64,000 nucleotides of DNA, taken from positions 1,868-65,867 of the IMG/VR virus record IMGVR_UViG_2767802493_000005, one strand, 5' to 3'. Source of the stretch: a virus (Duplodnaviria; Caudoviricetes). The position numbers and the translations under genes were made by a program. This document shows positions 8,500 through 18,760 of this stretch, piece after piece. Position 1 is the stretch's first letter; each line of letters starts with the position of its first letter. The notes beneath the pieces are model-generated. The model saw nothing but the letters and a program-made list of their open reading frames with translations. It did not search any database and had not been told where the DNA came from.

Positions 8500-8695
8500 G
8501 GGTATCTCCGGACCGTGCGGACGAGGCCTGGGCGGCCTTCAGGGCGGTTTGCCAAGCGGGTATCGAGCTGTCGTCGGGGCCGAGCAGCTGCAATAGGCCG
8601 GGCCGGTGGCCAGCGACGATGCGGCCGCCGGCGCGCAGCACCTCGAACACCTGCGACTTCTTTGTGAGCGGCTGTGGGCGATGGGTGCCGGTCAT
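8486..8695 (-). CDS. Small hypothetical protein
   Basis: Coupled ATGA start in the leftward operon. Confidence 0.5.
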   Translation of the reverse strand: MTGTHRPQPLTKKSQVFEVLRAGGRIVAGHRPGLLQLLGPDDSSIPAWQTALKAAQASSARSGDTHEPQ

Positions 8696-8814
8696 GCGCC
8701 CTCGACCTCATGCCGGACGGAAGGGCGATCCAAGTAGGTTTTGCCCAGGCCTTGCGCCACGAACAGGGCGTGAGCATGCTGGCGCGGTAGGGGCAGCCCA
8801 AGGCAACGAACAGA

Positions 8815-9390
8815 ATGACGACCCACCTGGAGCGTGGATGGACGCTCGGCCTCAAGTCCATCTGGGACATGCGTGCCAAGCTGGCTTGGGAAGCGACGAT
8901 AGTTCGAGACCAGGACCGCGACCGACCAGGCGTGCTCAAGACCGGCCCGAGGCATGAGCCGCGAGCCTTCCTTTTTGCTTCCGCCAACGCCATTGCAACG
9001 GCCTGGCACATGGTGGAATGGCTGCACTACCAGCTGGAAAAAGACGGGCTCGTTGCGAGCGCTTCGGCTGCGGTGGGGGCGGACCTTTCGACTGTAGATA
9101 AGGTCCAGAAATGGGTTTGTTTGAACGATGCCATGCGGACTTGCGGGGCAATTTGCCTGGCAGGCAAGCATCTGAATCTCAAGAACAAGGGCTTTGCTGG
9201 CTTGGACCTCGACGTCCCCGTCTTCTTCAATTTCTACGTTGAGCCCGGTTCGTCGCCGAGCATCCTGATGACATCCACGGCGGAAATCTCCACGGACGGC
9301 GGGACCTACACTCAGACGCTGTTGAACGTACTGCGGGATGCGGAGATCTTCTGGGACCACACGCTCAGCGTTACTGGAATTCCTCGCTGA
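8815..9390 (+). CDS. Counter-oriented moron, possible HEPN-like helical protein
   Basis: Opposite strand to the operon, more A/T-rich codons; NAIATAWHMVEWL and CGAICLAGKH motifs. Confidence 0.6.
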   Translation: MTTHLERGWTLGLKSIWDMRAKLAWEATIVRDQDRDRPGVLKTGPRHEPRAFLFASANAIATAWHMVEWLHYQLEKDGLVASASAAVGADLSTVDKVQKWVCLNDAMRTCGAICLAGKHLNLKNKGFAGLDLDVPVFFNFYVEPGSSPSILMTSTAEISTDGGTYTQTLLNVLRDAEIFWDHTLSVTGIPR

Positions 9391-9436
9391 GCAGCGCTTG
9401 CGAGTGCTGTTGGACGACGCGGGGCTGATGCTCATG

Positions 9437-9694
9437 TCAGCGCCTCTGGCCAGCCGGCAAAGTGGGGAGCTGCTGGGGCTCGGCAACCGCCGCCGTCAGG
9501 TTCCCGGTTTCGTGCGCTAACCGGATTGCATCGAGCTCGACCTTCACTGCGCCGATGTAGGTAGTGGCCACAATGGTCGAGGCCTTGGCGCGCTCGATGA
9601 CCTGGCCCATCTGTTCGGCACTCAGATCGTCGTCGCCCAGGCGTTCAAGCATGGCGACCAGGTGATCGCGGACGTCACTGACCTTGTTCTTCAT
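9437..9694 (-). CDS. Conserved small protein usually paired with phage HNH genes
   Basis: MKNKVSDVRDHLVAMLERLGDDDL..IERAKA. Confidence 0.7.
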   Translation of the reverse strand: MKNKVSDVRDHLVAMLERLGDDDLSAEQMGQVIERAKASTIVATTYIGAVKVELDAIRLAHETGNLTAAVAEPQQLPTLPAGQRR

Positions 9695-14597: not shown

Positions 14598-15129
14598 ACG
14601 AAGATAGTTTAAGGACTATCTGGCCCGCGTGACGGCCGGCGCACCGCAAGAGGGCGTAAAGGATCCAGCCAGTGTTGAGGGCTTCGGGAGTGAAGCCTGC
14701 GACGTGCTCCAATGCATCAAACGGCAAGGGCCAGGCAAGCGCTCTATCGCGTGCCTCGCGCGCCAGCGCTGCCTCCCAAATGCTCAGGTCTGCATAGCGA
14801 ATGACATTGACCGTTGGAACGGAGAACGCAGGCGCTTGGCCCCGATCCACGGTGAACTGAGCGAAATCGTCAGTACCAATCCACCATTCGCGCCGATCAT
14901 AGATCTCTGATCCGTGCTGGCGCCGCGCGCGCCGAAAAGCTTCCTCGATACCGGCGCGCATTGCTTCAGTTGTGCGGTCGCCCGCGAAGAGAAACTGGGT
15001 CAGGCTCTCAACGAGCTCACCGGCCTCTACATCGGTCGTCGGGCTGAATGCCAACTCAGCCGGCCTTTGCCGCAAGGCCACCCGCTGGGAGACCTGCGTA
15101 CCGAACCTCAGCGTTTGCCACACGCTCAA
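14596..15129 (-). CDS. Hypothetical protein downstream of the repressor (start uncertain)
   Basis: Only plausible ORF between the repressor and PL; natural amino-acid composition. Confidence 0.4.
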   Translation of the reverse strand: MSVWQTLRFGTQVSQRVALRQRPAELAFSPTTDVEAGELVESLTQFLFAGDRTTEAMRAGIEEAFRRARRQHGSEIYDRREWWIGTDDFAQFTVDRGQAPAFSVPTVNVIRYADLSIWEAALAREARDRALAWPLPFDALEHVAGFTPEALNTGWILYALLRCAGRHAGQIVLKLSS

Positions 15130-15439
15130 TGTTGGTGCGGCCCTGCTCCGGGACCGCGATGTAGTCCTGGATGACTTGGTTGAGCCGCTGGCCGGTCAGG
15201 ACTTCTAGAGGGACATCCTGGATGAACAACATCCATGCCGGAACGCCGAAAGCCGCCGCCAAGCCGTCGACGGTGCGGACAGTAGGGGAGGTCTCGTGGG
15301 TCTTCCCATAGGTGACGACGTTGCCAACGTTGCGCTGGGAGAGCCCGGCGCGCTTGGCCACCTTCGCCTGAGTTTCGCCGCCTGCCTCCATGAGCCGGCG
15401 AACGTTGTCGGCGAGGATCAGGTTCGAATCAATGTTCAT
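15056..15439 (-). CDS. CI-like XRE-family repressor without an S24 peptidase domain
   Basis: LADNVRRLM..TQAKVAKRAGLSQRNVGNV..SPTVRTVDGLAAAFGVPAWMLF; divergent from cro; 127 aa. Confidence 0.85.
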   Translation of the reverse strand: MNIDSNLILADNVRRLMEAGGETQAKVAKRAGLSQRNVGNVVTYGKTHETSPTVRTVDGLAAAFGVPAWMLFIQDVPLEVLTGQRLNQVIQDYIAVPEQGRTNIERVANAEVRYAGLPAGGLAAKAG

Positions 15440-15442
15440 GTA

Positions 15443-15500
15443 AGCAGAATATTGATCGGCCTCGGCAAAGTACTGCTTTCCACCTGAGCAAACTTTTGCT
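15443..15500. promoter_or_regulatory. Three OR-like 14-bp operators between repressor and cro
   Basis: AGCAGAATATTGAT 15443, GGCAAAGTACTGCT 15464, AGCAAACTTTTGCT 15487 (spacing 21 and 23 bp). Confidence 0.75.
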
Positions 15501-15512
15501 ATATGTAGGCGC

Positions 15513-15833
15513 ATGGACGCCGATACCCTCTTGCATCAAACCGTGGTGCGCCTGCGTGCGCATGAAGGGAAGTACGCCGAGATCGCCCGGCAGAACCCGG
15601 ACATCGGCTATTCGTGGCTGACGAAGCTGGCGCACGGGCAGATCACGAACCCGACGATCGCCAGCCTGCAGCAGCTGATCGAGGCGCTGAATGCCTTCGA
15701 AGGCTTGGAGCGGGGCGGCCCAGCCGAACTGGTGGCGCAGGCCGATCCGGTTATGGATCCGGTTATGGAACTGCGCGCCGAACCGAGCGGCGACGTGGAC
15801 GCCGGCCGCATCGTTCCGCTGGAGACAGCCTGA
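15513..15833 (+). CDS. Cro-like HTH protein
   Basis: KYAEIARQNPDIGYSWLTKLAHGQITNPTIASLQQL. Confidence 0.8.
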   Translation: MDADTLLHQTVVRLRAHEGKYAEIARQNPDIGYSWLTKLAHGQITNPTIASLQQLIEALNAFEGLERGGPAELVAQADPVMDPVMELRAEPSGDVDAGRIVPLETA

Positions 15834-16222
15834 TGGCCCGTCGACACCTCAGCAATCCTCGCGAAGGGGAAGATCGCGGCCACGGCCGGGATCGCAGGGA
15901 GCTGCGCGCGCTGCGGCAGAGGGTGCGCGACCTGGAAGCCCAGGTCGCGATGTACCAGTTGCCTGGTAACGGGTTGATCGAGAAGGCGCTTGCAGAAGCC
16001 AATGCCAGCATCGCCTCGCTTGAACAGGAAACCTCGCGCGCGGTCACTCAGCGGCAGGTGCTAGCTCAATGCCAGGAAACACTGAGCGCGCAGCGATCAC
16101 AAATTGTTCGAGAAACGCTGGGTCGAAGCCCTGGGCGACGAACGCTTCGTACGCGACTTGGAGACCTGCTTCAACGTTTCGTCGCGTGGCTTGATCAGCA
16201 TTCGCAAGGAGGCCATCCGTGA
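15833..16222 (+). CDS. Coiled-coil hypothetical protein (module ORF A)
   Basis: TGATG-coupled to cro; LRQRVRDLEAQV resembles ORF A'. Confidence 0.55.
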   Translation: MARRHLSNPREGEDRGHGRDRRELRALRQRVRDLEAQVAMYQLPGNGLIEKALAEANASIASLEQETSRAVTQRQVLAQCQETLSAQRSQIVRETLGRSPGRRTLRTRLGDLLQRFVAWLDQHSQGGHP

Positions 16223-16403
16223 TGGTGCGTTGGGCTGCCTGCGTCCCGCCGGCCATGTGCTCGTTCACCAAGAGCTTTTGGAATGAACTGTGGGTGGCCT
16301 CGACGAAACCGTTGATGACACCAGCCATTCGCTCGTTCTGCACTTTCAGCTGGCCGACGGCAGCCTCGAGCCCTGCTAGTCGCTGGGCAATCTCTTGGTC
16401 CAT
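16044..16403 (-). CDS. Antisense gene C (coiled-coil N-terminus)
   Basis: RBS GGAG; MDQEIAQRLAGLEAAVGQLKVQN, paralogous to 16611-16994. Confidence 0.6.
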   Translation of the reverse strand: MDQEIAQRLAGLEAAVGQLKVQNERMAGVINGFVEATHSSFQKLLVNEHMAGGTQAAQRTITDGLLANADQATRRNVEAGLQVAYEAFVAQGFDPAFLEQFVIAARSVFPGIELAPAAE

Positions 16404-16512
16404 GGTGATCTCCGTGGTGGGAGTGGTTGGGTGGTACCGCCAAGCCTGCCCGGAGATTGCCGCCACTGCCAGCACCAGCCTTCGGCAATTGCAGGGGGTT
16501 ACCCATGGGTAA
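16219..16512 (+). CDS. Coupled ORF B overlapping the antisense gene
   Basis: GGAGG RBS and TGATG overlap at the start; overlaps the next ATG at the end; atypical composition. Confidence 0.35.
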   Translation: MMVRWAACVPPAMCSFTKSFWNELWVASTKPLMTPAIRSFCTFSWPTAASSPASRWAISWSMVISVVGVVGWYRQACPEIAATASTSLRQLQGVTHG

Positions 16513-16894
16513 GGGGTTACCCCAGACGACTCCGACGGTCATGACCGCGGCTCTGCAGCGCATTGGTGTCTTGGAGCGTCAGGTGCGCGCGCTGCAGAAG
16601 GTTGCGTCGCCTAGCGCTCCGGCTCCTGGTCATCGTTGCTGCTGCGACCGGTTCGCATCTGGCCAATCGCCCGGGCCGGCTCCGAGGTGCGTTCCTGCTG
16701 AGCTGCCGCTTGCCCGTCCCCCGCTGCCCGTGCTGCCTTCGACTTCAGAATCTTCGCAACCAATTCCTCCAGGCGTTTCGTTACCAAGACCGCAGAAGGG
16801 GAGAGGCCTTCGGGTCCGGCTTGCTCGTGCACTCTTTGGATGGCACCGCGAACCATCGCGAGCAGCATGTCCAAGTCCGGATGACTGCCAATGA
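16505..16894 (+). CDS. Module ORF A'
   Basis: ALQRIGVLERQV..GRGLRVRL resembles ORF A; coupled at both ends. Confidence 0.4.
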   Translation: MGKGLPQTTPTVMTAALQRIGVLERQVRALQKVASPSAPAPGHRCCCDRFASGQSPGPAPRCVPAELPLARPPLPVLPSTSESSQPIPPGVSLPRPQKGRGLRVRLARALFGWHREPSRAACPSPDDCQ

Positions 16895-16994
16895 GCGCGG
16901 TTGTGAACCAGCGATGCGCGGCGTTCTCTACCTTCAGCAGCGAAACGCCTCGCTCAAGTTTGGCGATTCGTTCTTCGATCTCGGTGGGGGTCAT
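16611..16994 (-). CDS. Antisense gene C'
   Basis: MTPTEIEERIAKLERGVSLLKVEN, paralogous to 16044-16403; AGGGA upstream. Confidence 0.6.
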   Translation of the reverse strand: MTPTEIEERIAKLERGVSLLKVENAAHRWFTTALIGSHPDLDMLLAMVRGAIQRVHEQAGPEGLSPSAVLVTKRLEELVAKILKSKAARAAGDGQAAAQQERTSEPARAIGQMRTGRSSNDDQEPER

Positions 16995-17217
16995 TCAACT
17001 GTCCCTGCAGGATGGTGAGAGTGATCGATTCTGCCATCCGTTCAGAAGTTTGTCTGCGCGTAAATTGCACCCCTTTTGCACGTATCTCGCACGTATCTCG
17101 CACACATTTCGCACATGCCGCGCGTCGCTTTACGCGCACCGCACGAACCGCAAAACCCGAGGACTCCCATGCCCTGGATCGATGAAACCTGGCTGCAGGA
17201 CGCACTGGCGGCCCTGA
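16891..17217 (+). CDS. Coupled ORF B' (doubtful)
   Basis: ATGA-coupled start; same phase as ORF B. Confidence 0.25.
   Translation: MSAVVNQRCAAFSTFSSETPRSSLAIRSSISVGVIQLSLQDGESDRFCHPFRSLSARKLHPFCTYLARISHTFRTCRASLYAHRTNRKTRGLPCPGSMKPGCRTHWRP
17065..17114. repeat. Five T(T/C)GCAC direct repeats at an exact 11-bp period
   Basis: 17065, 17076, 17087, 17098, 17109. Confidence 0.8.
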
Positions 17218-17696
17218 AGGCCACGTGCGATGTCGACGCACACACCCGCAATGCGATGATTCAGTTCCTGCTGGACAACGGCTTCTGGGACCAGGAGAAG
17301 CTGAAGGACTGGACCAGCGCTGTTGCCAAGTTCAACAGCTGCCTCAATCCGAACAAGGCCGAATTCTTCAAGATCGGCGAGCTGTGGGCGCTGATGCGCC
17401 GCTTCGGCCGTCACCAGCTCTTCCTGGCCATGGCCGCAGATCTCGGCTACGAGGTCCGCCCGATCCCCACCGAGCATCGCCGGCAGGAACTGATGCAGCA
17501 GCTGCTCGACGCCCAGGCGCAGTGTGCCGCCGCCACGGAGCGCGTCGCAGGTCAACTGGAACGCCTCAACACGCCGACGCCGGAGCCGCGCCCAGGTGCC
17601 GTCCATGGACAGGGTCGCGCGCATTTCAGCACCAGCCCGAGCGATTGGAGCGCGCCCTCCAGGGGCAACGCCGTCCAAAGCGTGGGCTGCCCGTAA
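17169..17696 (+). CDS. CII-like phage regulatory protein
   Basis: CLNPNKAEFFKIGELWALM..GRHQLFLAMAADLGY; position between cro and the replication gene. Confidence 0.6.
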   Translation: MPWIDETWLQDALAALKATCDVDAHTRNAMIQFLLDNGFWDQEKLKDWTSAVAKFNSCLNPNKAEFFKIGELWALMRRFGRHQLFLAMAADLGYEVRPIPTEHRRQELMQQLLDAQAQCAAATERVAGQLERLNTPTPEPRPGAVHGQGRAHFSTSPSDWSAPSRGNAVQSVGCP

Positions 17697-17713
17697 CGGG
17701 ATAGGCCTGCGCA

Positions 17714-18760
17714 ATGAGCAACAAAATCACGGAGCTCTGCTGGAAGCTGCAGATGCCGCCGCCCGCAAAGGCGTTGCTGATGGCGCTCGCGTGGCACGCG
17801 GACGACTTCGGCATGGCCTATCCGGGGTTCACCACGTTGATCCAGAAGACCTGCCTGAGCAAGACCGCGCTGCTCAGCGCGATCGCGTGGCTGGAAGAGC
17901 ACCACGTGCTGACCATTCGCCGCGGCGGCAGTGATGCCGGCGGCACCAAGTACAGCAACCGGTACAGCCTCAACCTTGGCCGCCTGGACCCAGAAGTGTT
18001 CGCATCGAAGCCACGGCGCGCGTCTAAACCGGTGCGGCAGACGGACCGGTCCGAGAGCGACGAAGTGGTTGACCGGTCCGCCACGAACACCGGTACGGAT
18101 GCCGAACCGGTCCGCGACGCGGACGGGTCGAGAGAGACTGAAGGTGCTGACCGGTACGCGGGAAGTACCGGTACGCAAGAACGACCGGTGCGTCTCGCGA
18201 ACTCGACCGGTACGTCTGGCGCACCTGACCGGTCCGTCTCGCGTACTCAACCGGTCCGCGAGACGGACCCTAAAGGTCATGAAAGGTCAGTAAAGGTCAT
18301 TGAATCGTCAAACGCGCAGGCGCGCGACGACGAAGCGGCGATGCCGCAGCTCACCGCCGACGAGGTCAACCGCGAGCTGATGGGCATCCCACGTTTGCCG
18401 GCGGGTCTGGACCCGCAAGTCCTGGCCAGGTTCGTGCGTCATCGCCGTGTGCTGGGAAAGCCGATGACGATCAGCAGCTGGCTGGAGCTGCAGCCGCGAT
18501 TCCGCCAGCTCATGGCCGATGGCCACGACCTCAACCGCTCCCTGCGCCAGACGATGGCTGCAGGCCTGGCACTGCCCGTAACACCGAAACCCGAGGGGAC
18601 CGACCATGCCAACAATTCAGGCTCTGCTGCCGAACGAGTCCGACGTCGAGCAGAAGAGGACGAGCTCCGTGACGCCGCTGCAGAGGCAGACGCAGCCGCC
18701 GGCGCAGCAGGCGCCCTTGACGGCCCGGGCTACGCGGACGCTCTGGGTGCGCATGGCTGA
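17714..18760 (+). CDS. Replication initiator (O-like, N-terminal HTH)
   Basis: KALLMALAWHADDFGMAYPGFTTLIQKTCLSKTALLSAIAWLEEH; internal iterons. Confidence 0.85.
   Translation: MSNKITELCWKLQMPPPAKALLMALAWHADDFGMAYPGFTTLIQKTCLSKTALLSAIAWLEEHHVLTIRRGGSDAGGTKYSNRYSLNLGRLDPEVFASKPRRASKPVRQTDRSESDEVVDRSATNTGTDAEPVRDADGSRETEGADRYAGSTGTQERPVRLANSTGTSGAPDRSVSRTQPVRETDPKGHERSVKVIESSNAQARDDEAAMPQLTADEVNRELMGIPRLPAGLDPQVLARFVRHRRVLGKPMTISSWLELQPRFRQLMADGHDLNRSLRQTMAAGLALPVTPKPEGTDHANNSGSAAERVRRRAEEDELRDAAAEADAAAGAAGALDGPGYADALGAHG
18028..18299. repeat. Replication origin: 11 ACCGGT(A/C/G)CG iterons plus 3 AAAGGTCA repeats
   Basis: Iterons at 18028, 18045, 18072, 18089, 18106, 18150, 18167, 18184, 18206, 18228, 18250; AAAGGTCA at 18272, 18282, 18292. 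Confidence 0.8.

What the first reader, a model, noticed from the sequence alone, without database searches (positions are those of the whole stretch)
15833..17217. Diverged tandem duplication of a module that codes on both strands downstream of cro
Seen: the plus strand has a chain of stop/start-coupled ORFs A (15833-16222), B (16219-16512), A' (16505-16894) and B' (16891-17217). The minus strand has C (16403-16044) and C' (16994-16611) with RBSs and matching N-termini (EIAQRLAGLEAAVGQLKVQN / EIEERIAKLERGVSLLKVEN). A and A' also match (LRQRVRDLEAQV..LRTRL / LQRIGVLERQV..LRVRL). Relative frames are the same in both units, and none is the codon-aligned shadow frame. Inference: antisense genes, possibly lysogen-expressed, are overprinted in the lytic early operon while sense ORFs keep translation continuous towards cII/O/P.
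Basis: partly seen in the sequence, partly recalled or inferred. Interest (0 to 1): 0.72.

Follow-up and report, generated by a model that had tools for sequence, protein, structure and literature searches.

The report
Antisense overlapping genes between cro and cII
Between the cro and cII switch genes of a Stenotrophomonas prophage, two rightward and two leftward small genes converge and overlap, and for one pair (A'/C') comparison with related phages shows that the same 284 bases encode two conserved proteins on opposite strands, one of which no annotation lists.

Summary
All six ORFs lie at the stated coordinates, but they are not equivalent.

- **Real genes.** C and C' (minus strand) are under purifying selection. 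A and A' (plus strand) are also real: they have conserved N-termini, ribosome-binding sites and coupled starts.
- **A'/C' is dual-coding.** The 13 bases GATGACTGCCAAT (16880-16892) read ..DDCQ-stop in A' and I-G-S-H in C', the latter with rare codons. They are identical in all five C' subtypes and in two distant loci. The three other distinct distant loci differ at one base each, and each change alters C' while leaving A' unchanged or conservatively changed. The A' frame stays open in about nine lineages where roughly 10 stops are expected.
- **A/C overlap (179 nt).** C dominates it. Most of A's tail shows no protein-level selection.
- **B and B'.** These are third-position-aligned shadow frames of C and C'. 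B has a conserved Shine-Dalgarno sequence and ends at the A' start, so it may be translated as a bridge. This is unproven, and B' is not conserved.
- **Duplication.** A vs A' and C vs C' are not significantly similar. The same plus/minus architecture and phase do recur one to three times in related phages.

All functions are unknown. No expression data could be obtained.

The parts
15513..15833 (+). cro-like gene, 96-97% identical in related phages; its TGA shares one base with the A start codon
   Evidence: phrog_9425 E=8.7e-4; tblastn; sequence
15833..16222 (+). A: real rightward gene of 129 aa. Codons 1-38 are strongly conserved and 39-72 moderately. The last ~59 codons run antisense into C, mostly without amino-acid-level selection
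   Evidence: pN/pS 0.07-0.16 (codons 1-38), 0.34-0.67 (39-72), 1.0-1.9 in the overlap. Shorter A variants of 78-97 aa without any C partner occur in most related loci
16044..16403 (-). C: real leftward gene of 119 aa, convergent with A and overlapping it by 179 nt
   Evidence: pN/pS 0.12-0.52 in the overlap; coding-type GC123; three subtypes; present in NCBI protein sets
16219..16512 (+). B: third-position-aligned shadow frame of C; a possible translated bridge from the A stop to the A' start, unproven
   Evidence: GC123 0.48/0.62/0.74; P(open given C protein) 0.33-0.53; its stop lies 0-8 nt from the A' ATG in four subtypes
16206..16212 (+). AAGGAGG Shine-Dalgarno-like sequence 6-9 nt before GTG 16219 / ATG 16222. 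Its AGGAGG core is invariant in all three C subtypes because C spells Leu-Leu with non-preferred codons (CTC CTT in two subtypes, CTC CTG in the third)
   Evidence: plus-strand alignment of the A/C overlap; Leu codon usage CTG 93, CTC 29, CTT 6
16505..16894 (+). A': real, unannotated rightward gene (129 aa from ATG 16505; conserved Met at 16541). It has an N-terminal helix, a disordered Pro-rich linker and a C-terminal helix, and ends ..DDCQ
   Evidence: three-base wobble periodicity; it is the only frame that is open in every sequence and also selected, pN/pS 0.27; RBS and ATGA coupling to short A; homologs in a distant clade; AF2 model; its exact sequence, and two other A' start choices tried, are absent from predicted-protein collections, and only 5 relatives turn up in 5.8 billion clusters
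16611..16994 (-). C': real leftward gene of 127 aa, a predicted three-helix protein with an L-I-G-S-H-P motif, overlapping A' by 284 nt
   Evidence: pN/pS 0.11-0.42; at least 5 subtypes; AF2 pLDDT 77; narrow family of 16 representatives in 1.84 billion
16880..16892 (.). GATGACTGCCAAT: 13 bases coding D-D-C-Q in A' and I-G-S-H in C', identical in every close-clade locus and in two distant loci
16836..16843 (.). TTGGATGG (TTGCATGG in one subtype): A' residues (F/L/I)-(G/A)-W opposite C' (A/T)-(I/M)-Q. C' third positions are held as C, C (G in one sequence) and A, the A being the rare CAA codon
16891..17217 (+). B': shadow frame over the C' N-terminus and the C'-cII spacer; not conserved as an ORF in other subtypes
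   Evidence: GC123; tblastn matches mostly only its last ~25 residues next to cII; no ATG in the L019 group
17028..17036 (-). TGGCAGAAT on the minus strand: a conserved extended -10-like element upstream of the first leftward gene; candidate leftward promoter (inference)
   Evidence: alignments; the consensus scan itself found no promoter
17065..17114 (.). five T(T/C)GCAC copies at exact 11-bp spacing upstream of that element; candidate activator sites (inference)
   Evidence: sequence; present only in some subtypes
17169..17696 (+). CII-like activator gene, the right-hand border of the variable interval
   Evidence: phrog_101 E=1.2e-10; PF06892 25.9 bits against a cutoff of 26

Best explanation
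The cro-cII interval of this Stenotrophomonas lambdoid prophage holds two convergent gene pairs whose 3' parts overlap on opposite strands.

**Genes.** The rightward genes A and A' follow cro in the early operon; A's start is coupled to the cro stop. The leftward genes C and C' are separate small helical proteins.

**A'/C' overlap.** This 284-nt overlap is truly dual-coding. Codon position 1 faces position 1, so every base is a first or second codon position in at least one frame. Both proteins are conserved at the point where A' ends (..DDCQ-stop opposite C' L-I-G-S-H-P).

**A/C overlap.** C carries most of the constraint. A's tail is largely a run-on that ends where C's conserved T-I-T forces a stop.

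**B and B'.** These are shadow frames. B may be translated only as a bridge that hands ribosomes from A to A'.

**Proposed mechanism (inferred, not shown).** The rightward genes are made from the early lytic promoter. The leftward genes are made from a promoter next to cII. Convergent transcription through shared DNA would then make the two sets mutually exclusive, tying these fast-evolving proteins to the lysis-lysogeny decision. The biochemical functions of all four proteins are unknown.
For: **Context.** HTH repressor, cro-like, CII-like and O-like genes flank the interval. The host is Stenotrophomonas.

**C and C' are selected.** pN/pS is 0.11-0.52.

**A is real.** Codons 1-38 give pN/pS 0.07-0.16. 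Short A variants with no antisense partner exist.

**A' is real.**
- The DNA alignment shows third-base wobble.
- It is the only frame that is open in every sequence and also under selection, pN/pS 0.27.
- Ribosome-binding sites precede its ATG, and in short-A loci the A stop and A' start form ATGA.
- The distant clade (cro about 60% identical) has a 137-164 aa homolog with the same N-terminal motif and the same ..DCQ-stop end.

**Dual constraint in the A'/C' overlap.**
- C' spells I-G-S-H with the codons ATT GGC AGT CAT in all 20 distinct close-clade sequences, although ATT, AGT and CAT are minority codons here.
- The only changes across clades are GGC>GAC, AGT>AAT and CAT>CTT. Each is non-synonymous in C'. 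In A' two are synonymous and one is Asp>Glu.
- The A' stop alternates between TGA and TAA, and C' never uses the preferred G-ending Leu/Val codon at that position.
- C' synonymous divergence falls to 0.39 in codons 34-58, against 0.70 and 0.56 in the flanking parts.
- In the distant pair L037/L038 both frames have pN/pS below 1 in the overlap: 0.44 for A' and 0.64 for C'.
- The A' frame is open in every lineage. P(open) per lineage is 0.04-0.60, and about 10 stops are expected in total, not counting the window.

**Recurring architecture.** A third unit and further units in distant loci have the same phase and the same stop position at a hydrophobic-Ile junction.
Against: - No transcript, ribosome or peptide evidence could be obtained.
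- Across the A' linker and most of A's tail the plus-frame pN/pS is 0.9-1.9, so most of each overlap shows no protein-level selection on the plus frame.
- Stops in this phase arise mechanically at (F/L/I/V)-codon + A-starting-codon junctions. The plus ORFs ending at an L-I junction is therefore partly automatic.
- The promoter scan found no consensus promoter on either strand. The leftward promoter and the mutual-exclusion mechanism are inference only.
- None of the four proteins matches a known family, and C' has no structural match.
- The lineages treated as independent share ancestry.
Confidence: 0.7

Rival explanations
1. Cover or bridge ORFs. The plus-strand frames over C and C' matter mainly because they are translated. 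Unbroken, coupled translation from cro to cII would protect the early transcript from polarity while it crosses antisense genes, and the amino-acid sequence of the overlapping parts would be irrelevant.
For: - Coupled junctions cro/A, A/B, B/A' and A'/B'.
- The AGGAGG core of the Shine-Dalgarno sequence at the A stop is kept by non-preferred Leu codons in C in three subtypes.
- B's stop falls 0-8 nt from the A' ATG in four subtypes.
- In three-unit loci an ATGA-coupled ORF runs from the A' stop to a TGAATG junction with AAGGAG before the next plus gene.
- The A' linker is unconstrained as protein yet never interrupted.
Against: - Both strands are almost fully tiled by ORFs throughout this GC-rich window.
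- B stays open with probability 0.33-0.53 per lineage, about 0.08 for three lineages.
- B' is not conserved, and the L019 group has no start codon at the A' stop.
- Both ends of A' are conserved as protein across clades, so A' is more than a spacer.
- cII has its own strong ribosome-binding site.
Confidence: 0.2
2. Only the minus-strand genes are real. A' and the overlapping part of A are chance open frames of GC-rich DNA, and the conserved 13-mer is a DNA or RNA signal (a protein-binding site, promoter element or recombination linker) that happens to lie inside C'.
For: - Gene callers list C and C' but not A'.
- The A' overlap has non-coding-type GC123 in the window.
- pN/pS is about 1 or higher in the linker.
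- A second conserved block, TTGGATGG, lies 36 nt upstream in roughly inverted orientation.
Against: - The conserved 75 nt before C' show wobble periodicity, and the A' frame is the only one of the six that is both open in every sequence and selected.
- The base after the 13-mer varies G/A, keeping a stop in the A' frame.
- The three changes inside the motif all fall on A' third positions.
- The motif occurs once per locus and nowhere else in the window.
- Distant-clade A' has coding-type composition and pN/pS 0.44 in the overlap.
Confidence: 0.07

Closest known systems
Long antisense overlapping genes in bacteria (for example the Pseudomonas aeruginosa pairs in PMC8850804, and the E. coli O157:H7 genes laoB in PMC5810103 and those in PMC9927249)
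   Same: A second protein-coding frame lies on the opposite strand of an annotated gene. Annotation pipelines miss it, and the case rests on an intact ORF across relatives plus selection in both frames.
   Different: - Here the partners are convergent genes sharing only their 3' parts; one is not embedded in the other.
- The overlap sits in a phage lysis-lysogeny region.
- The same arrangement recurs in tandem.
- The evidence is purely comparative, whereas the published cases have RNA-seq and ribosome-profiling support (as stated in their abstracts).
Lambda PRE and coliphage 186 pE: a CII-activated leftward promoter reading antisense through the early rightward genes (my own knowledge of these systems)
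   Same: A CII-like gene (the 186 CP76 family by Pfam and PHROG) lies directly right of a spacer carrying a conserved leftward -10-like element. Leftward transcripts from it would be antisense to the cro-side early genes.
   Different: In lambda and 186 the antisense stretch carries no protein genes of its own. Here one to three leftward genes lie in it. Neither the promoter nor its dependence on CII was tested, and the consensus scan found nothing.
Shadow ORFs of GC-rich genomes
   Same: B and B' have the position-3-to-position-3 phase, non-coding codon-position composition and no independent conservation.
   Different: A' and the first 70-80 codons of A do not fit. They carry selection signals of their own.

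Membership tests
Antisense overlapping gene pair under dual selection (A'/C') | Both ORFs intact in all relatives | tested here: met
   A' and C' are open in every locus that carries them, in 5 close subtypes and 5 distinct distant loci. P(open) for the A' frame is 0.04-0.60 per lineage.
Antisense overlapping gene pair under dual selection (A'/C') | Purifying selection detectable in both frames within the overlap | tested here: met
   - C' pN/pS is 0.11-0.42.
- A' C-terminus: an invariant 13-mer spelled with rare C' codons, with changes only at A' third positions.
- C' pS is reduced over codons 34-58.
- In the distant pair pN/pS is 0.44 for A' and 0.64 for C'.
- This is not met over the A' linker, where pN/pS is 0.9-1.75.
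Antisense overlapping gene pair under dual selection (A'/C') | Start codon with ribosome-binding site for each gene | tested here: met
   - A': GGGGG 6 nt before ATG 16505 in the window; AAGGAG in L006; ATGA coupling in short-A loci.
- C': AAGGAG or GAGGA in L019 and L004, weaker in the window.
Antisense overlapping gene pair under dual selection (A'/C') | Transcription and translation of both strands | not testable with these tools
Antisense overlapping gene pair under dual selection (A/C) | Purifying selection in both frames within the overlap | tested here: inconclusive
   pN/pS is 0.12-0.52 for C and 1.0-1.9 for A. C's synonymous rate is not lowered in the overlap. Rare C codons (CCT, ATT, CTA, GCT) are fixed opposite A's conserved Q-R-Q-x-L-A-x-C-Q.
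Diverged tandem duplication of one module | Significant sequence similarity between the two copies | tested here: not met
   - A vs A': E=1.7; profiles give probability 4%.
- B vs B': no alignment.
- C vs C': only a 20-residue coil, hhalign probability 1.2%.
- No DNA repeat links the units.
- The third-unit gene C'' against the C' profile gives E=4.7e-4, probability 32%.
Diverged tandem duplication of one module | Same architecture and reading-frame phase in each copy | tested here: met
   Position 1 faces position 1 in A/C, A'/C', the third unit and the distant-clade units. The plus ORF stops at a hydrophobic-Ile junction of the minus gene. This is partly a mechanical consequence of the phase.
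Lambdoid immunity/early region | Divergent HTH repressor and cro-like gene, followed rightward by CII-like and O-like genes | tested here: met
   - Repressor: HTH_31 24.2 bits (cutoff 27) and HTH_3 21.3 bits (cutoff 23), both below cutoff, plus several PHROG repressor families.
- cro-like: phrog_9425.
- CII-like: phrog_101 E=1.2e-10.
- O-like: phrog_391 E=2.7e-15.

GC-rich shadow ORF (B, B') | Third positions aligned with a real gene, non-coding GC123, no independent conservation | tested here: met
   GC123 is 0.48/0.62/0.74 for B and 0.49/0.61/0.63 for B'. Openness is as expected from C's protein. B' is not conserved.

The most novel reading that the evidence does not exclude
The cro-cII interval carries a repeatable bidirectional coding cassette. 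Each unit would encode a lytic-programme protein (A type, from the early rightward promoter) and a lysogenic-programme protein (C type, from a CII-side leftward promoter) on opposite strands of shared DNA. The two could then never be made together and would be forced to co-evolve. Units would be duplicated, swapped and diversified between phages as a specificity module of the lysis-lysogeny decision or of superinfection control. The unconstrained parts of the plus frames would be kept open so that ribosomes travel without a gap from cro to cII.
Probability: 0.2. Interest if true: 0.85.

Novelty: new variant of a known kind. Interest (0 to 1): 0.64.

Why it matters
Well-supported antisense overlapping genes are few, and most rest on expression data with weak evolutionary support. 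The A'/C' pair gives an unusually clean comparative signature:
- 13 invariant bases;
- changes that alter the annotated protein but spare the hidden one;
- an alternating stop codon.

The pair sits at the heart of a temperate phage's decision region. Its neighbours are nearly identical between phages while this interval is hypervariable.

It also exposes a conserved gene family (A') that essentially no annotation contains. Only 5 called proteins match it among 5.8 billion clusters. It offers a natural system for asking whether convergent overlap enforces mutually exclusive expression, and whether open 'bridge' frames are selected to prevent polarity.

Tried and rejected
**Searches that found nothing**
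- DNA search and tblastn of A, C' and distant-clade A' against 50,697 isolated phage records: no match.
- Pfam, PHROGs, PADLOC and NCBIfam scans of A, A', C, C' and C'': nothing above cutoff.
- Rfam scan of 14900-17800: nothing.
- Promoter/terminator scan: no promoter, and one weak terminator-like hairpin at 16950-16966, below the shuffle expectation.
- ESM Atlas look-up for C': only unnamed clusters scoring below 0.9.
- Foldseek of the C' model against PDB: best E=0.46, nothing usable.
- A six-frame search of 400 family genomes found C' strongly in 2 and A' strongly in 1, so both are rare prophage cargo.

**Ideas rejected**
- An ORF chain as evidence by itself: rejected after the tiling control.
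- Whole-overlap pN/pS as the sole test: it hid the local constraint at the A' C-terminus, which appeared only when the overlap was split.
- A'' vs short A: BLASTP did not align their shared L-R-A-L-F-L-R-G ending, so I treat that motif as a lead only.

- The genome search would not draw relatives for a virus record.

As a result no expression data, no extra contigs for the further C' subtypes seen as proteins, and no A'-C' binding test were available.
Full report
**1. Context**

The window is a virus record, a Stenotrophomonas prophage. The genome search called it a virus record, and a near relative lies in S. maltophilia EA1.

The finding sits in a lambdoid early region:
- an HTH repressor (15056-15514, minus strand);
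- a cro-like gene (15513-15833, plus strand);
- a CII-like gene of the 186/CP76 type (17169-17696);
- an O-like replication gene (17714-18760).

The DNA is about 60-70% GC.

**2. The observation**

All six ORFs and their stop/start junctions are present as described.

The frame arithmetic gives two relations. A and A' have codon position 1 opposite position 1 of C and C', so position 2 of one frame faces position 3 of the other. B and B' have position 3 opposite position 3 of C and C'.

Codon-position GC content is gene-like for A, C and C'. It is not gene-like for B and B' (low GC1, high GC2). It is ambiguous for A'.

An ORF chain alone means little here. In 1340-nt windows across the 64 kb, the less-covered strand is still at least 95% tiled by ORFs of 40 codons or more in 67% of windows.

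- C vs C' matches only the N-terminal coil, E=8e-5 with 26% gaps.
- A vs A' gives E=1.7.
- B vs B' gives no alignment.
- No DNA repeat links the units.
- Family profiles do not rescue either pair. hhalign probability is 1.2% for C/C' and 4% for A/A'.

**3. Related loci**

I collected about 30 related prophage loci using A, C, cro and the C' profile.

cro, cII and O are 85-97% identical among them. A, C, A' and C' are only 30-60% identical. The interval is therefore hypervariable between conserved flanks.

C' occurs in at least five subtypes and C in three. Most loci carry a shorter A (78-97 aa) with no C at all.

**4. Which frames are selected**

Nei-Gojobori counts within subtypes:

| Region | Frame | pN/pS |
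|---|---|---|
| A'/C' overlap | C' | 0.11-0.42 |
| A'/C' overlap | A' | 0.94-1.37 |
| A/C overlap | C | 0.12-0.52 |
| A/C overlap | A | 1.0-1.9 |
| A codons 1-38 | A | 0.07-0.16 |
| A codons 39-72 | A | 0.34-0.67 |

C and C' are therefore real. A is real, but its last ~59 codons look mostly like a run-on into C. A ends where C's conserved T-I-T makes a stop unavoidable in that phase.

**5. A' is a real gene**

- The 75 nt upstream of the C' stop are conserved with clear third-base wobble.
- Of the six frames, only A' is open in every sequence and also under selection, pN/pS 0.27. The one other frame with a similar ratio carries stops in 4 of 20 sequences.
- Ribosome-binding sites precede its ATG. 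In the window GGGGG lies 6 nt upstream, and in L006 the site is AAGGAG. In short-A loci the A stop and the A' start form ATGA.

**6. The A'/C' overlap is dual-coding**

Splitting the overlap changed the picture.

- *Fixed rare codons.* C' codons 34-37 (I-G-S-H) are spelled ATT GGC AGT CAT in all 20 distinct sequences of five subtypes. ATT, AGT and CAT are minority codons in this phage. On the plus strand this stretch reads GAT GAC TGC CAA, which is D-D-C-Q, followed by the A' stop.
- *Alternating stop.* The stop is TGA or TAA, and C' never uses its preferred G-ending Leu/Val codon at that position.
- *Second fixed block.* Further C' third positions are fixed with rare A-ending codons (CAA, and NNA at the next codon). 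They sit opposite hydrophobic residues and an invariant Trp of A'.
- *Lowered synonymous rate.* C' synonymous divergence drops to 0.39 over codons 34-58, against 0.70 and 0.56 on either side. The same drop appears within two of three subtype groups and, in the third, relative to the C-terminal flank only.
- *Distant loci.* The exact 13-mer also turned up in two loci whose cro is only about 60% identical. All six distant loci, five of them distinct and one from a Thermomonas MAG, carry an A' homolog of 137-164 aa. It has the N-terminal motif D-I-K-N-P-T-L-A-A-A-x-L-R-R-x-G-A-x-E-R and the ending ..DCQ-stop. It overlaps a C'-like gene in the same phase.
- *Direction of the changes.* The only changes inside the motif across clades are GGC>GAC, AGT>AAT and CAT>CTT. 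Each alters C' (G>D, S>N, H>L). In A' they are silent, silent and Asp>Glu. This is the reverse of what a C'-only gene would show.
- *Both frames selected.* In the distant pair L037/L038 both frames have pN/pS below 1 in the overlap, 0.44 for A' and 0.64 for C'. That requires constraint on both.
- *Open frame.* Given each C' protein and the phage's codon usage, the A' frame should stay open with probability 0.04-0.41 per close subtype and 0.16-0.60 per distant locus. About 10 stops are expected outside the window, and none is seen.

**7. Structure predictions**

The AlphaFold2 model of A' has an N-terminal helix, a disordered Pro-rich linker of about 65 residues and a short C-terminal helix (pLDDT 60). 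This matches where selection is seen and where it is not.

C' is predicted as a three-helix protein (pLDDT 77) with no significant PDB match.

**8. B and B'**

Both have shadow-frame composition.

Given C's protein, B stays open with probability 0.33-0.53 per lineage, which is unremarkable. Two features keep a bridge role alive:
- The AGGAGG core of an AAGGAGG sequence 6-9 nt before the GTG/ATG at A's stop is invariant in three C subtypes, because C spells Leu-Leu with non-preferred codons.
- B's stop lies 0-8 nt from the A' ATG in four subtypes.

B' is not conserved. In the L019 group there is not even a start codon at the A' stop.

**9. Is it a repeated module?**

By sequence, no (section 2). 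By architecture, yes.

- In loci with a longer A'-to-cII spacer there is a third unit. Its plus ORF has AAGGAG and a TGAATG junction. It overlaps a leftward gene carrying G-L-I-A-A-L-P-D in the same phase, and it stops at the L-I junction.
- That leftward gene matches the C' profile weakly (E=4.7e-4, probability 32%).
- Across 14 representative loci almost every leftward gene in the interval has a plus ORF in this phase, overlapping its 3' part by 150-330 nt and ending at a hydrophobic-Ile junction.
- Part of this is mechanical. In this phase stops arise only at NTY or NCT codons followed by an A-starting codon.

**10. Mechanism**

What is shown:
- Two gene sets of opposite orientation share DNA.
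- The rightward set is coupled to cro.
- The leftward set has its own ribosome-binding sites.

What is inferred:
- A conserved TGGCAGAAT (minus strand, 17028-17036) sits upstream of the first leftward gene in close and distant loci.
- In this window it is preceded by five T(T/C)GCAC copies at 11-bp spacing (17065-17114).
- Together they look like an activator-dependent leftward promoter, placed like lambda PRE or 186 pE.
- If so, C' and C would be made with, or instead of, the repressor-side programme, and A and A' with the lytic programme. Convergent transcription would make the two sets exclusive.

None of this was tested. The consensus scan found no promoter.

**11. What is known**

- C' has only 24 close protein clusters, all unnamed or called hypothetical, mostly from Stenotrophomonas, and 16 representatives in 1.84 billion proteins.
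- A' matches only 5 called proteins among 5.8 billion clusters. Its exact window sequence is in no collection.
- No isolated phage carries any of these genes.
- Antisense overlapping genes are an established but thinly populated category.

**12. Verdict**

- Coding on both strands is real for A'/C'.
- The A/C overlap is dominated by C.
- B and B' are shadows, with an open question over B.
- Lysogen-specific expression and an anti-polarity role remain untested.

Noticed in passing
window 17065-17114: Five copies of T(T/C)GCAC at exact 11-bp spacing (starts 17065, 17076, 17087, 17098, 17109) between the C' start and the cII start. They occur only in some subtypes, with 3-6 copies. They may be phased activator sites.
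   Followed up: partly
window 17028-17036: ATTCTGCCA (TGGCAGAAT on the minus strand) is conserved upstream of the first leftward gene next to cII, in close and in distant loci. It resembles an extended -10 element.
   Followed up: partly
window 16430-16441 and 16499-16512: Two palindromes. GGTGGTACCGCC lies in the highly conserved 5' region of C and is a perfect GGTGGTACCACC in relatives. TTACCCATGGGTAA lies across the A' ATG.
   Followed up: no
window 15439-15514: The repressor ORF start (15514) overlaps the cro start (15513) by 2 nt. A later Met (about 15439) would leave a 73-nt divergent promoter region and is the more likely start.
   Followed up: no
window 15744-15767: An exact 12-nt tandem duplication GATCCGGTTATG x2 inside cro, encoding D-P-V-M twice. 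One relative group has three copies.
   Followed up: no
L006 2776-4001, L010 3322-4001, L019 3818-5043: Extra cassettes of 0.7-1.2 kb are inserted between cro and A in some relatives. They again contain a leftward gene (M-A-L-P-A-D-V-R-I-D-Q-L-H-E-L-L..) overlapped at its 3' part by a plus ORF in the same phase.
   Followed up: partly
window 8692-9486: A plus-strand gene (8815-9390) inside the leftward operon is completely covered by a minus-strand ORF of 264 codons. I confirmed only that the ORFs exist.
   Followed up: partly
L066 1489-1854 and L067 1486-1827: Distant C'-like proteins (V-I-S-S-H-P-Q-P and L-L-E-S-H-P-D-L) occur in other Xanthomonadaceae-family genomes outside this prophage context, with no A'-like partner. 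The C-type fold may therefore predate the overlap.
   Followed up: partly
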